The notes under the pieces are model-generated. The model worked only from the letters and a program-made list of their open reading frames with translations. It did not search any database and was not told the origin of the DNA. A stretch of 64,000 nucleotides of DNA from Eledone cirrhosa (Eukaryota): assembly GCA_964016885.1 (NCBI GenBank), contig OZ024740.1, positions 157,356,001 to 157,420,000 on the forward strand. The letters are read 5' to 3'. Below, piece by piece: positions 2,096-8,627 of this stretch (the first letter of the stretch is position 1; every line of letters begins with the position of its first letter). Both the position numbers and the translations under genes were made by a program.

Positions 2096-2214
2096 GTCAT
2101 TATTGAAAGTCTCTACATTTCGCAAAATACATAATATTTTTTATTGGAGAAGGTAAGATATTTTTCCACAAAAATTTGATTGCACTTATGTATTTTTCGA
2201 CAATGTTATTTATT

Positions 2215-2470
2215 TTTAGCGAGTTGGTCGCAGGGTTATTTACTTCAGTAAATACCATTGCAGGCCAACCACTAATTTAATTAGATAACGGATATAGAAA
2301 AACTTTTGTGTATTTGCGCTCGTGTGTGAACAGTTCAAGAGCCTGTCGCCAAAGAGAGAGATTGCTCTTTGCTCCCTCCTTTATAATTCCTAGAACGGAG
2401 GTTCAAGGAATACTCTAGAATTCTACGGGTAGTTACTCTAGCTACTTCCCTTTGTCTAGAGAGCGCTACA
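2215..2470 (-). repeat. 3' LTR (256 bp)
   Basis: Matches 4724-4979 with about 9 substitutions by manual count. Minus-strand termini are TGTAG...CTAAA. Confidence 0.93.
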
Positions 2471-2483
2471 AGACTCCCCTCTC
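2471..2483 (-). promoter_or_regulatory. Polypurine tract
   Basis: Minus strand GAGAGGGGAG-tct lies immediately before the TG of the 3' LTR. Confidence 0.85.
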
Positions 2484-2855
2484 AGACGAGAAGTCGAATA
2501 ACCAACCGAAGGTCATTGTAGCGAGAACCCGTAAGAAATGAGGAGCAAAACAAAGGTACAAGAAAGTGCATGAATAAAACATGAGCTCGCAACTGAAGCA
2601 AACAGCAAAAGGTACAAAACAAGTAAATGCATTTTACAAAGAATAAATTTTTTGCTGCACAAGGATGATGCAGAAAAAATGTAAATGTCACAAAACTGAT
2701 AATTCAAAGGTAACATAAAGGAGCAGAGAAAAATTAATGCTCAATGGTTAGTTCAAAGTTTCTTCAAAAATCAAATAGTTCATACATCACCAGTGTACAG
2801 ACTTTTCTGACACTAGTTCTATCTGAAAAAAGAAGTTTGTTATTGCCACAAGGGG

Positions 2856-3887
2856 TTAAATGTATATAGTTTTTGACAATTTACTTGGCCATTTCACTGT
2901 TCTGCCACTTCGTGTGACATAAGGTTGTTTGGTATGTGGTGTTTGTGGTGGAGGTGAAGGTGTTGGTGTGGGAATGAATGTACGAGGTATGTCAGGCAAT
3001 GTAATGAGACTTTCAGAGAAAGCCCTCTTTGCCCTGTCAATGGATATTGTCTCTTTTCGACCATTGACAGCCACTTTGAAATGTTTTGGTGTGTGCGAAA
3101 GCACACGAAAAGGTCCATTATAGGGTGACGTAAGCGGTCTCTTGACGTAATTATTCCGTATAAAAAATGTGTGTCCACGTAGAGATGTCCGATGGAACAG
3201 CAGAAGAAATAGACTGATCACGAGAGTTCATTGGTGGAAGATCCGAGAAGTAAGAATGAATGCTGGTGACATATGATGTTGGATCAAGATGCGATGAATC
3301 AACCGGTGCTAGCATTTGACCGGGAAGAGTCAAGGTGGTACCGTAAAGAAGTTCAGCTGAGGAGAAACCTAAATCTGGCTTAACGGCAGAACGACAACCT
3401 GGAAGCACGATTGGCAAAAATTCTGTCCAACGTTGCGGATCAGGAGTAGCGCGAAGTGCAGCTTTCAACTGTCTGTGAAACCTCTCCACCATTCCATTGG
3501 AGGCTGGGTGATAGCTGGTCGTATGAATGTGATGAGCACCCAAAAGTCGTGAATTTCATGAAATAAAGAGGCCTCGAACTGGCGTCCTCGATCCGTGGTT
3601 ATTTTAGAAGGAACACCAAAGCGAGCAATCCAATTGGAAATGAAAGCTCGGGCAACGTACTCTGCTGTTATGTCCACTAAGGGTATTGCTTCAGGCCACC
3701 GAGAGAAACGATCGGTACAGGTCAATATATATGTGAACCCACGACTAACGGGCCATGGACCAACAATATCCATGTGAATGTGACGGAAACGAGCGTCCGG
3801 CGGGCTGAATTTACCAAGAGGAGCGCGAACATGCCGATGAACCTTGGAGCGCTAACACTGAAAACAAGAACGTGCCCAACCAGTGAT
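2856..3887 (-). pseudogene. Gypsy integrase remnant (CxxC half of the zinc finger, rve core, GPF/Y C-terminus) with frameshifts and a stop
   Basis: [58 protein letters not shown] and PYNGPFRV are spread over three ORFs. Confidence 0.93.
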
Positions 3888-3917
3888 TAAACGACGTCTG
3901 TTGTGAAAGTTACAACG

Positions 3918-4710
3918 ATAGCAGATGTGTCGTCTCTCACGGAGGAAGATTTCACTAAACAAGTCGAAAAATGTGTTTATATTTTGAAGAAAGCAGGAAC
4001 GAGAAGCTGGCAGGAATAATGATGGTAACTAAACTAATCAAAGCTGACAAATGTGATTCCCAGAGCCAAAAGTTACTGTTTGATGCCATAGGCTTCAAGT
4101 TTCTTGTCGGGTTACTGCGTTCAGCCAAAGTCCCTGAAGGGTGCAGTAAATATATATACAAGTCATTATCTCTCACCATTCTCTCCAGTTTCTCAGGATT
4201 ACAACATGTGAAGGAAGATCCTCGAATGTTCACCTCCATTCCACTTATAATTGATGTCCTCATCTCTTGTCTCAATATTGATGAAATGCTGGATGAAACT
4301 GAACTGACAGAAGAGGAGTTCAAATCCATGGTTGACAGTTGTTATGATTGCTTAACATCTGTTTGTACAACAGACAAAGGAAGGACAACATTGATAGACT
4401 CCAGATCTGTGTCACATCTGTGTACTTGCTATATACATGCTACTTATAGTAATCAACGGGCTTTGGCTGTGATACAGCAGATTATCTCAGCAAATGGTGC
4501 CGGAATTTGGACAAAGAATGTGAAGGGTCTCCAAGAACTATTGGCTTATCTAGGAGAGAATTTTTTCCAGTCAAAAGAAGCTGAAAAGTTCCAGTTTTGT
4601 GACATCCTTGCCAATATCTTCAGCAATATTTCAAAAGAGAACATCCCAAAAGGTAACTTTAGTTGGCAGAAAAACATACCAAAAGGAATAATGGACTTGA
4701 TTAAATCACG
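3918..4710 (+). pseudogene. NCDN: Neurochondrin-like N-terminal fragment (about 260 codons, no introns), antisense to the LTR element
   Basis: NEKLAGIMMVTKLIKA, LLFDAIGFKFL, VPEGC, SMVDSCYDCLTSV, SVSHLCTCY and EKFQFCDIL are collinear with the neurochondrin N-terminus as I recall it (SEQFAALLLVTKAVKA, RIFDAVGFTFP, APDGC, SMIDDTYQCLTAV, TVSALCQAY, SKFELCQLL). The probable original start is ATA at 3918 (xADVSSLTEEDFTKQVEKCVYILKKAG), with a frameshift near 3998. Confidence 0.88.
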
Positions 4711-4722
4711 TCAGGGTCACCA
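4705..4722 (-). promoter_or_regulatory. Primer binding site, tRNA-Trp
   Basis: Minus strand TGGTGACCCTGACGTGAT, 1 nt after the 5' LTR. It is complementary to the tRNA-Trp 3' end (AUCACGUCGGGGUCACCA) with one G-U pair. Confidence 0.9.
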
Positions 4723-4723
4723 C

Positions 4724-4979
4724 TTTAGCGAGTTGGTCGCAGGGTTATTTACTTCAGTAAATACCACTGAAGGCCAACCACTAATTTAATTAGATAACAG
4801 ATTTAGAAAAACTTTTGTGTATTTGCGCTCGTGTGTGAACAGTTCAAGAGCCTGTCGCCAAAGAGAGAGATTGCTCTTTGCTCCCTCCTTTATAATTCCT
4901 AGAACGGAAGTTCAAGGAATACTCTAGAATTCTACGGGAAGTAACTCTGGCTACTTCCCTTTGTCTAGAGAGCACTACA
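4724..4979 (-). repeat. 5' LTR (256 bp) with TATAAA at 4894-4889
   Basis: Direct repeat of 2215-2470, followed on the minus strand by the PBS. Confidence 0.93.
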
Positions 4980-5072
4980 TATTCATTATAAAAATTAAAT
5001 AATAGCATTCTATATGTAGGTGGGCCCCCTTCATCTCCTTGCAACCAATATTTTTAGACCCAGTCCGCCACT

Positions 5073-5236
5073 GATCTGAAGGTATAATTAGGGTGGAGTA
5101 TCTGCAGATTTTACATTAGTTCTGCATAGATATTCTCCTTTTCGCTAATCTTTAGTATTATACTGGCATCTGCTGGGCAGCTAACTTCCACTACTGTGCA
5201 TGTCTTCTCTTCCCTGTCCCATATCATTATATCTGT
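5073..5236 (-). mobile_element. Dong/R4-type LINE RLE fragment (family B)
   Basis: Translates DIMIWDREEKTCTVVEVSCPADASIILKISEKENIYAELM; same family as 6870-7146. Confidence 0.8.
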
Positions 5237-5246
5237 GTATGTATGT

Positions 5247-6858
5247 TTCTTTTTCTCTTAATTTATGACCGGCCACCTTCCTGGTAGCAAGATTGTAAAA
5301 GAAAAGATATTGTCATCCTTTGAATCGCAAGTATGTTTTGCAAATTTTGAAGGTGCCAGCTATCACAGCCATTTGTAGTCTATGAATTAAGGTGCTGCTC
5401 TTTTTGTCCATAAATCCAAGTTCAGTCATACTTTGGTCCAAGCGGGTTGGTATATAACCTGTAGCTCCAATAATGATGGGTATGATGCTGGAGGTGTATC
5501 GTGAATACTGGATCTGCAAACTCCTCATCAATGGTCTGTAAATGTCTTCTTTCTCTTGTATTTTTCTTACAACGTTGACATCAAGTGGGCAGCTGATCTC
5601 TACAATAGAGCACGTTTTCAATGTGTGGTCCCAAACAACAATATCAGGCCGGTTGTGCTTAAATTTGGAAGCAGTTTTTATTTTCAGGTTCTACCATATT
5701 TCCTTACTGCCATCTGTCTCAACATATTCCTCCTCATTTGTTTTTAATTTTGTTTTCCGAAGTGCATTCCAGATGGTTCTAGCTATCACATCGTGTCTCA
5801 TGGGGAGGTAGTAGCGAGATGACACTCTTTCACAGTTGGAAATCATGTGGCTAACATCTTCGATCTTTGTTTTTCATAGCCTATATTTATTGTCGATTAA
5901 TGGCCCTCCTCTTTGTGTAGTATATTTTTGGTAGGGATTTCTTGTTCCTGTGTTGCATAGAGATATCCTTCAAGGTGGGATGTCATAAACTTGTCGGAAC
6001 TCCATGGTAGGCCTTTTGAATGATTTATCCCCTCTATGGTGTGTGATTTTCATCTCAGGTACCCATGCACAAATTTCTCTGTAAATTGGTCCATTTTTTA
6101 ACTTGTTCGAGCATTGAATAGGATCTTCGAATGATCCTGGGAAAGAGATTTATGTCAGGCCTTATTCCTTATCTCTCCTCTAGATCAGTGGCTATCCTAT
6201 AGAGTTACGGCCCTTGCCATCCTCAGTTCAAATCCTGCCGAGGTTAACTTTGCCATTCATCCTTACGGGGTCGATAAAATAAAGTACCAGTAATGTACTG
6301 GGTAATTGCTGGCCTTGTGCCAAACATAGAAACAATTATTTCTTTCATGCTCATAAACATGGGCAAGATGGTTGCCAACCTTTTTCCTCTGTTGAAGATG
6401 TTGCTTCAGTGTTACTATCCGGGTCTCATATGTTAATATGGATTTTAGACCCCGGCCACCTTCCTTGCGTGAGAAGTATAGCCTATCCACATCACCATTG
6501 ATGTTAAAGTTCCCAGTAACACTGAGAAGTTTGCGAGTTCTAACATCCATCTCACTTAGTTCTTGCAATGACCAGTTCAGCAGGCCAAATGTTGGCGTTA
6601 GAATTGGCACAGCATAAGTATTGTGGGCAATGTACTTGTTGTACGCTGACAGTTCTGATGAGCCATATTTTCTTTACTCTTCTAAGGTATTCAGTTCTGG
6701 TTCTTTCCTTATTTATGGGTCAATCACATCTCATCCTGTCCAAGATATCTGTAGTTGTTACCTGGCTGTAGAGGTTGTATAGTCAAGCCGTTCATCTCAA
6801 GATTTCCAGAGGAAGGCACAACCCTTCAACGTTTTACTGTCAAATATGCACATTTGCC
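5247..6858 (-). mobile_element. Dong/R4-type RLE LINE, 3' portion (family A), interrupted by a SINE
   Basis: YRYLG, RLYFSRKEGGRGL, RHD, HNRPDIVVWD, VEISCP; ends in ACATACATAC. Confidence 0.85.
6190..6340 (+). mobile_element. tRNA-derived SINE (5' truncated)
   Basis: B-box GTTCAAATCC plus the core CATCCTTACGGGGTCGATAAAATAAAGTACCAG and the tail GCTGGCCTTGTGCC, shared with many copies in the window. Confidence 0.85.
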
Positions 6859-6869
6859 AATGTCAAATA

Positions 6870-7380
6870 TGCAAGTAATGCCAATATAATATTAAAGATT
6901 AGCGAAAAGGAGAATATCTATGCAGAACTGATGAGAAATCTGCTGATACTCCACCCTGATTACACCTTCAGATTTATGCCTGTGATTATTGGGGCACTGG
7001 GATGTGTTAGTAACTGCCTCAATACAAATCTTGAAAAGCTGGGCATCACAGGAACAGAAAGAACACAACTATTTAGGAAATTGCAAGTACAATCCATTAA
7101 TGGAACAGTAAAAATATGTAAAACATTCCAAAGCTTTTGCATCTAATTACTGCATATACACATATACAGATACTAAGCATATACACATGCACACATACAA
7201 CTTAAAACATACAGATCCACACATACAGTAACATCCATATCTACACATGCATGCAGACATGCATACATATCTACCTAGTTGATGTTGTGTAAATTCCAAT
7301 TAGAGAGTCTTGTGTCTATGTTAGAAACTGACTATCTCTCTATTGGCAAAAATTTGTGAAATTATAAAACCAGAAGAAGA
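6870..7380 (+). mobile_element. Dong/R4-type LINE 3' end (family B)
   Basis: KENIYAELMRNL...PVIIGALG...TVKICKTF, then a 3' UTR abutting (TACA)n. Confidence 0.8.
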
Positions 7381-7418
7381 TACATACATACATATACATA
7401 CATACATACATACATACA

Positions 7419-7452
<34 letters not shown>

Positions 7453-7502
7453 CATTCATACATACATCCATACATACATACATACATACATACATACATA
7501 CA

Positions 7503-7534
<32 letters not shown>

Positions 7535-7549
7535 AACATACATACATAC
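7381..7549. repeat. (TACA)n microsatellite
   Basis: Directly visible. Confidence 0.95.
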
Positions 7550-8627
7550 TAACATCATATGAGACCCGGATAGTAACACTGAAGCAACATCTTCAACAGA
7601 GGAAAAAGGTTGGCAACCATCTTGCCCAGGTTTATGAGCATGAAAAAAAATATATCAGTAGAATAGCCACTGATCTGGAGGAGAGATATGGAATAAAGCC
7701 TGATATAAATCTCTCACCCAGAGAAATCGGAAGATCCTATTCAATGTTCAAACAAGATGAAAAAATTGACCAATTTACAGAAAAAGTTGTGCATGGATAC
7801 TTGAGACGTAAAACACAGACCATAGAGGCGATAAACCACTTAAAAAGCCTGGCATGGAGTTCCGACAAGTTTATGACATCACACCTTGAGGGATATCTCT
7901 ATGCAATACAGGAACAAGAATTCCCTACCAAATATCTGCTGCACAAAAGAGGAGGGCCAGCAGCTGACAATAAATGTAGGCTACGTAAAACAAAGATCGA
8001 GGATGTAAGCCACATTGTTGCCAGCTGCGAAAGAATGTCATCTCGCTACTACCTCCCCATGAGACACGATGGGATAGCTAGAACCATCTGGAACGCACTT
8101 CGGAAAACAAAATTAACAACAAACGAGGAAGAATATATTGAGACAGATGGCACTAAGGAATACTGGTGGATCCTGAAAATAAAAACTGCCACCAAATTAA
8201 AGCACAACCGGCCTGATATTGTTGTTTGGGACCACACATTGAAAACGTGTTCTGTTGTGGAGATCAGCTGCCCACTTGATGTAAACGTTGTCAGAAATAT
8301 ACAGGAGAAGGAGGACATCTACGGACCATTGATGAGGAGTTTACAAATCCAGTATCCAAGATACACCTTTAGCTTCATACCCATCATTATTGGAGCTACG
8401 GGTTATATACCAACCCGTTTGGACCAAAGTATGACTGAACTTGGATTTGCGGACAAAGAGCGCAGCTCCCTAATTCATAGTCTACAAATGGCTGCGATAG
8501 CTGGCACCTTCAAAATTTGCAAAACATTCTTGCGATTCAAGGGATGACAATTTCTTTTCTTTTACAACCTTGCTACCAGGAAGGTGGCCGGTCAAAAAAA
8601 TATACCCGAAATTAAGAGATGGAGATA
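7550..8627 (+). mobile_element. 5'-truncated Dong/R4-type LINE (family A): zinc knuckle and restriction-like endonuclease
   Basis: ORF 7744-8547: AIQEQ, KCRL..EDVSHIVASC, RHD, HNRPDIVVWD, VEISCP, K..IY. Bracketed by (TACA)n. Confidence 0.9.

What the first reader, a model, noticed from the sequence alone, without database searches (positions are those of the whole stretch)
2215..4979. LTR retrotransposon whose gag-pol is replaced by an antisense host neurochondrin fragment
Seen: paired LTRs, TSD, PBS and PPT enclose only a truncated integrase and ~820 bp of uninterrupted neurochondrin-like sequence on the opposite strand. Known: LTR elements can carry host cDNA by template switching, which normally copies co-packaged mRNA in the sense orientation. 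Inference: this is a non-autonomous vehicle that integrated as a chimera. The antisense orientation is unusual, and neurochondrin is a neural gene.
Basis: partly seen in the sequence, partly recalled or inferred. Interest (0 to 1): 0.9.

Follow-up and report, generated by a model that had tools for sequence, protein, structure and literature searches.

The report
Antisense host mRNA captured by retrotransposon
A dead jumping gene in an octopus-like genome carries a spliced, backwards copy of the host neurochondrin message joined exactly at its tRNA primer site, likely because the second DNA strand landed on the host message during copying, a route that would always give antisense copies.

Summary
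Confirmed, with corrections. A gypsy element (minus strand, LTRs 96% alike, 4-bp TSD) has about 2.9 kb of gag-pol replaced by 816 nt of neurochondrin cDNA: 8 exons of a parent gene on another chromosome, introns removed, antisense to the element. The copy is not uninterrupted (start codon lost, 7-nt deletion) and is single, so no vehicle family is shown.

The junction lies inside the 18-nt tRNA-Trp primer site, and the parent mRNA matches 8-10 nt of it. Best reading (0.78): plus-strand strong-stop DNA, ending in a copy of the tRNA, mis-annealed to the mRNA and copied it. Controls: 5 of 9 related loci with a full 18-nt tRNA copy turn straight into antisense of their own element. Another gypsy family holds a second spliced host RNA, antisense, behind the same tRNA copy.

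No listed contig bridges either junction, and expression is untested. LTR capture of host mRNA is known (Tan 2016) and this scan noted in-frame cases on other DNA. I found no plus-strand antisense route in 10 searches; related retroviral errors are recalled only. New variant of a known kind.

The parts
4724..4979 (-). 5' LTR (256 nt, TG...AA)
   Evidence: 43 matches at 81-100% in a lower-bound genome search
4705..4722 (-). Primer-binding site: full 18-nt complement of the tRNA-Trp 3' end including CCA, one transition; 4705-4712 is shared with the neurochondrin mRNA
3897..4712 (+). Spliced neurochondrin cDNA, antisense to the element: 21 nt of 5' UTR plus coding exons 1-8, ending 3 nt before the exon 8/9 boundary; start codon lost, 7-nt deletion, 15 substitutions
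2856..3896 (-). Integrase remnant, cut inside the zinc-binding region and broken across three frames
2474..2483 (-). Polypurine tract
   Evidence: sequence; same place in siblings
2215..2470 (-). 3' LTR
2211..2214 (.). Target-site duplication TATT (left copy)
4980..4983 (.). Target-site duplication TATT (right copy)

Best explanation
This is a single, dead gypsy retrotransposon copy whose gag-pol is replaced by a spliced antisense neurochondrin cDNA, likely made when plus-strand strong-stop DNA mis-annealed to a co-packaged host mRNA. Steps: (1) Plus-strand synthesis from the purine tract copies the LTR and the 3' 18 nt of the tRNA-Trp primer (established retroviral biology, PMC13191261). (2) Its 3' end would pair with 8-10 nt of neurochondrin mRNA instead of the element's own short, imperfect primer site (overlap shown; pairing inferred). 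(3) Reverse transcriptase would copy 816 nt of the mRNA toward its 5' end, so the copy reads antisense in the element (orientation and splicing shown). (4) The end would join minus-strand DNA that had stopped in the integrase gene, with 1 nt of overlap (junction shown; route inferred). (5) The product, with two complete LTRs, was integrated by integrase supplied in the particle (TSD shown) and has decayed since. No function is shown.
For: The junction lies inside the 18-nt primer site, 0.4% of a sibling's 4437-nt interior. The parent mRNA matches the tRNA copy over 8 nt (10 with the next two tRNA letters). Close siblings' own primer sites share only 5-6 nt with it; the extra 3 nt have p=0.017 and the extra 5 nt p=0.002 by base composition. 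Copies with the family's normal leader have short or mismatched primer sites: 21, against 1 with a full 18-mer (L080). Of 9 loci picked only for LTR end plus full 18-mer, 5 turn into antisense of their own element at the junction: L077, L112, L113, L114 with 2-6 nt overlap, L086 after reading on into the tRNA. L112 has the same layout as this locus and an intact TSD; L087 is also rearranged with an intact TSD. Second host case, L090, another gypsy family: the 18-mer is followed by about 760 nt from one donor locus (93-100% alike) with a 1710-nt GT-AG intron removed and splice signals on the strand opposite to the element; tRNA letters 16-18 are absent from the donor. Ages agree.
Against: In this locus tRNA letters 11-18 are also mRNA letters, so the sequence alone does not prove that the primer was the tRNA copy; one family copy (L080) carries a full 18-mer in its own genome. 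The integrase-side junction has only 1 nt of overlap and sits at an acceptor-like motif, so a run-off at the mRNA 5' end is not shown. The 9 control loci belong to sister subfamilies (87-89% internal identity where tested), not the closest one. Of those 9, 1 is normal, 1 starts with a sense piece and 2 are unresolved. L090's flanks do not form a matching TSD. No host protein family was found behind other primer sites: 0 of 48 ORFs and 0 of 143 ORFs. No listed contig bridges either junction.
Confidence: 0.78

Rival explanations
1. A neurochondrin mRNA fragment served as the minus-strand primer at the primer site in place of the tRNA. Plus-strand synthesis then copied through it, as it lacks the m1A58 stop, giving the same antisense product.
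For: Predicts the same junction, orientation and extension toward the mRNA 5' end; the mRNA does resemble the tRNA 3' end.
Against: Needs an mRNA 3' end cut exactly there, pairing with only 5-6 nt of the usual sibling primer site. In L090 and the antisense self-jumps the tRNA letters are kept although the donor lacks them.
Confidence: 0.08
2. A normal element integrated first; a later DNA break was patched with neurochondrin cDNA by microhomology, deleting gag-pol.
For: Explains either orientation; 5-6 nt of microhomology with the sibling primer site exists.
Against: A break has no reason to end in the primer site (0.4% of the interior). The pattern recurs at primer sites. Copy age equals LTR age within the error of small counts.
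Confidence: 0.07
3. An ordinary minus-strand template switch onto an antisense transcript of an earlier processed neurochondrin pseudogene.
For: Uses the textbook mechanism (Tan 2016).
Against: No other processed copy was found (both lower bounds). It does not explain the junction at the primer site, and the divergence leaves little time for an intermediate.
Confidence: 0.04
4. Assembly artefact joining cDNA contamination to a repeat.
For: No listed contig bridges a junction.
Against: The copy has 15 substitutions and a deletion not in the parent. Contigs of run X1 cross exon joints with 0-1 differences from the window (X1 may be the source sample). TSD, primer-site geometry and the parallel loci are not artefact-like.
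Confidence: 0.02

Closest known systems
LTR-mediated retroposition in animals (Tan et al. 2016, PMC5131818; passages, section 5, one supplement part and a supplement search seen)
   Same: Partial, intronless host mRNA copy replacing internal ORFs of an LTR element; both LTRs kept; microsimilarity at a junction; no poly(A).
   Different: Their model is a double template switch during cDNA synthesis from the element's RNA. The main text has 0 hits for 'PBS', 'plus strand', 'tRNA' and 'orientation'. Here the copy is antisense and anchored in the tRNA copy. Their Table S8 'Orientation' column looks like genomic strand (first 5 rows seen); supplement file 1 could not be searched.
Pxyfem of Plutella xylostella (PMC9674220; passages and section 10 seen)
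   Same: Reverse-complement spliced host mRNA piece joined to LTR-retrotransposon sequence, ascribed to template switching.
   Different: Pxyfem is multicopy, W-linked and yields silencing RNAs; its LTRs could not be found and that section gives no mechanism for the orientation. Here LTRs, TSD and primer site are intact and no expression is shown.
Plus-strand strong-stop DNA and second strand transfer (PMC13191261 and PMC6894440; passages seen)
   Same: 18-nt copy of the tRNA ending at m1A58, with minor read-through products, as seen fossilised in this genome.
   Different: The passages describe correct transfer, not capture of host RNA.
Retroviral plus-strand transfer errors and cell-derived inserts (Pulsinelli and Temin 1991; Olsen 1990; Dunn 1992) and IAP-LCMV recombinants (Geuking 2009); all recalled, not read (not held, one search found nothing)
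   Same: As recalled: deletions and foreign inserts that begin at the primer site after faulty strand transfer.
   Different: As recalled: cell-culture or somatic products, not germ-line fossils of spliced host mRNA in an invertebrate. These papers may already describe the chemistry.
LINE-made processed pseudogene (general knowledge)
   Same: Intronless copy of a spliced mRNA.
   Different: No poly(A), no TSD around the copy; the 3' two-thirds of the coding region is missing and the 5' end is kept.

Membership tests
Ty3/gypsy LTR retrotransposon | RT - RNase H - integrase order in full-length relatives | tested here: met
   sibling L047: RVT_1, RT_RNaseH, Integrase_H2C2, rve in that order; siblings 89-95% alike over the shared interior
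Ty3/gypsy LTR retrotransposon | Paired LTRs, tRNA primer site, purine tract, short TSD | tested here: met
LTR-mediated retrocopy (Tan 2016) | Intronless copy of a multi-exon host gene elsewhere | tested here: met
   8 exons on C13, 7 introns absent
LTR-mediated retrocopy (Tan 2016) | Replaces internal ORFs of a discontinuous LTR element; both LTRs kept | tested here: met
   about 2.9 kb of the sibling interior is missing
LTR-mediated retrocopy (Tan 2016) | Microsimilarity at the junctions | tested here: inconclusive
   8-10 nt at the primer side, 1 nt at the integrase side
LTR-mediated retrocopy (Tan 2016) | Made by switching between element RNA and mRNA in one strand, which gives a copy in the element's own sense (my inference from their model) | tested here: not met
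   copy is antisense; hence filed as a variant
LTR-mediated retrocopy (Tan 2016) | Co-transcribed from the LTR | not testable with these tools
   no run on record as RNA was listed; contigs give no strand
Non-autonomous LTR family carrying host sequence (Bs1-like; recalled) | The chimera has been copied again to further loci | tested here: not met
   one copy only (lower bounds)
LINE-made processed pseudogene | Poly(A), own TSD, intact 3' end | tested here: not met
   copy ends in exon 8, parent continues to at least residue 698 of a 712-aa homolog; no poly(A)

The most novel reading that the evidence does not exclude
Faulty plus-strand transfer is a general, overlooked second route of retroposition that by its chemistry puts antisense copies of host RNAs directly behind an LTR promoter, and this copy is or was transcribed into antisense or small RNA acting on neurochondrin, as Pxyfem does on its target. 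The route alone, without the regulatory part, I put near 0.6 for this genome.
Probability: 0.1. Interest if true: 0.85.

Novelty: new variant of a known kind. Interest (0 to 1): 0.52.

Why it matters
Antisense host or viral sequence inside LTR elements is a known source of silencing RNAs, but the usual template-switch model gives sense copies. This locus, a second spliced host RNA and several self-inverted elements show a simple route that would yield antisense copies. It leaves a searchable mark: LTR end, exact 18-nt tRNA copy, then antisense RNA. That makes the origin of such copies testable in any genome. The neurochondrin copy itself is most likely an inert fossil.

Tried and rejected
No RNA holder listed for the stretch; no conclusion on expression. 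The single letter at primer-site position 10 was considered as a tRNA signature and dropped: siblings vary there, and the neurochondrin copy shows 0 CpG transitions at 20 CpG positions. Search for an upstream exon whose end matches the element at the integrase-side junction: 0 donors with 4 or more matching nt in 60 kb; start site versus splice acceptor is unresolved. Pfam screen for more host captures: 48 of 53 antisense ORFs from 13 loci (L091 and two distal ORFs left out) and 143 of 170 from 27 loci (distal and duplicate ORFs left out) gave only RT, RNase H and protease hits. Candidate L198 is a multicopy repeat, not a host gene. Selection test uninformative: 5 synonymous and 8 non-synonymous changes, about 152 and 562 sites. 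Empty-site joints in runs X1, X4, X6 cannot be read as polymorphism because the target repeat is multicopy. Run X5 (another organism label) showed exon-limited pieces and mostly parent-type letters; absence of the copy is not proven. Only 100 of 328 primer-site matches were listed, and 30 of 76 fetched. Ten paper searches found no account of antisense host capture at the primer site; five older papers were not held. PMC10886601 and PMC12789967 (passages) added nothing.

Full report
Observation. The window holds a 2765-bp element on the minus strand. It has LTRs at 4724-4979 and 2215-2470 (256 nt, 9 differences), a 4-bp TSD confirmed by an uninterrupted paralog of the target repeat in the window, a purine tract, and an integrase remnant in three frames. 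Eight sibling loci were fetched. Most are 4.6-5 kb and 89-95% alike over the shared interior; L047 has the order RT, RNase H, integrase, so the family is gypsy. About 2.9 kb of the sibling interior, from the primer site into the integrase zinc-binding region, is missing here.

The insert. The plus strand gives Pfam Neurochondrin at E=2.4e-51; the closest longer proteins are 79% identical Octopus neurochondrins, so the host is probably an octopod (inference). The 816 nt at 3897-4712 match 8 exons spread over 27.7 kb of contig C13, with all 7 introns absent. The parent has further exons downstream. The copy starts 21 nt before the start codon, has lost that codon, carries a 7-nt frameshifting deletion, and differs at 15 positions: 14 in 812 aligned letters plus one at an exon joint. 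That is 1.8%, equal to half the LTR-pair divergence, which fits capture and integration as one event, with small counts. No second copy was found (40 of 83 candidates scored, a floor). In one search a 2246-nt contig of run X4 is the spliced parent mRNA and ends 13 nt short of the junction. Contigs of X1 cross exon joints with 0-1 differences from the window; X1 may be the source sample. No listed piece bridges a junction, and 6097 pieces were not shown.

Primer-side junction. The 18 nt next to the 5' LTR are the complement of the tRNA-Trp 3' end with one transition (genomic gene L076). Eight of them, 4705-4712, are also parent mRNA letters, and the match to the tRNA runs two letters further. 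The parent then diverges, 3 nt before the exon 8/9 boundary. Close siblings have a mismatched primer site sharing only 5-6 nt with the mRNA. By composition the extra 3 and 5 letters have p=0.017 and 0.002, and the primer site is 0.4% of the interior. Plus-strand strong-stop DNA ends in exactly this 18-nt tRNA copy (PMC13191261, passages). If that end pairs with a sense RNA and is extended, the copy reads antisense in the element. I give this 0.78.

Controls in the same genome. Copies with the family's normal leader have short or mismatched primer sites: 21 (that pattern could not match a full 18-mer) and 1 with a full 18-mer. One search took all loci with the family's LTR end plus an exact 18-mer, without regard to what follows: 9 loci. 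Five turn into antisense of their own element at the junction (L077, L112, L113, L114 with 2-6 nt overlap; L086 after reading on into the tRNA). One (L087) has a short sense piece and then antisense, one (L080) is normal, and two near-identical ones (L110, L111) are unresolved. L112 has the same layout as this locus, and L112 and L087 have intact 4-bp TSDs, so those rearrangements preceded integration. These loci are sister subfamilies, not the closest one. In other tRNA-Trp-primed families many loci read on into the tRNA past position 18. Of 20 fetched at length, 4 jump in sense into pol and 2 show antisense pol.

Second host case. From 100 listed of 328 primer-site matches I picked 20 with unusual continuations. 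L090, another gypsy family with LTRs 97.5% alike, has the 18-mer, then about 760 nt from one donor on C1 (93-100% alike), then sense RNase H-integrase and a 3' LTR. A 1710-nt GT-AG intron is removed and the splice signals lie on the strand opposite to the element. The donor pairs only imperfectly with the tRNA copy and lacks its letters 16-18, so there the primer was the tRNA copy. Against: its flanks do not form a matching TSD, and the RNA has no evident ORF. The other candidate searched, L198, was a repeat, and 0 of 191 antisense ORFs from 40 loci hit a host family. Host capture is therefore rare next to self-jumps.

Integrase-side junction. One letter of overlap only. The parent context fits a splice acceptor or a start site. 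No upstream donor matching the element was found in 60 kb, and CpG content is high in the last kilobase. Run-off at the mRNA 5' end followed by a 1-nt clamp is my guess, about even odds. L113's antisense jump lands 1 nt from the same integrase site, which hints at a hot spot.

Comparison. LTR-mediated retroposition is established (Tan 2016), and this scan noted in-frame captures in rays (unchecked). This locus meets the structural features but not the sense orientation their model implies. Pxyfem shows that antisense LTR-linked retrocopies can become silencing loci. Ten searches found no account of host capture at the primer site. Older retroviral work on faulty plus-strand transfer is recalled only and may cover the chemistry.

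Verdict. Real, single, decayed, no function shown. The neural role of neurochondrin is incidental; the mRNA was likely caught because it resembles the tRNA end. New variant of a known kind; interest 0.52.

Noticed in passing
L090:604-1400 (G000:C1:396020473 onward); donor G000:C1:208667034-208669626: Second spliced host RNA, without evident ORF, antisense directly behind an 18-nt tRNA-Trp copy in another gypsy family. The donor gene is unidentified.
   Followed up: yes
L113:609-2500: Palindromic element whose antisense jump lands 1 nt from the window's integrase-side junction, at a motif resembling the tRNA copy; possible hot spot.
   Followed up: partly
L086, L110, L111, L096, L115, L116, L197, L216: LTR ends followed by tRNA-Trp complement beyond 18 nt, some with G or A instead of T opposite position 58, as expected from copying a modified tRNA; L115 holds almost the whole tRNA.
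   Followed up: partly
L157, L158, L159, L169-L171, L173-L176: A cluster of 10 loci shares one read-through tRNA copy with the same non-T letter, followed by a second primer-site-like motif; it seems to have been amplified as a family.
   Followed up: no
L081:604-1365: 18-nt tRNA copy followed by an antisense ORF that looks like a LINE reverse transcriptase (by eye; no Pfam hit), a possible capture of another retroelement's RNA.
   Followed up: no
L131, L132, L148-L150: Primer site followed by a sense tRNA 3' end and an inverted LTR, forming head-to-head LTR pairs.
   Followed up: no
G000:C4:353394908-353486314: Tandem array of about 39 matches to the tRNA-Trp 3' end, likely a tRNA gene array.
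   Followed up: no
window 5074-8598: Two inverted, about 90% alike partial copies of another retroelement with endonuclease-like ORFs beside the finding.
   Followed up: no
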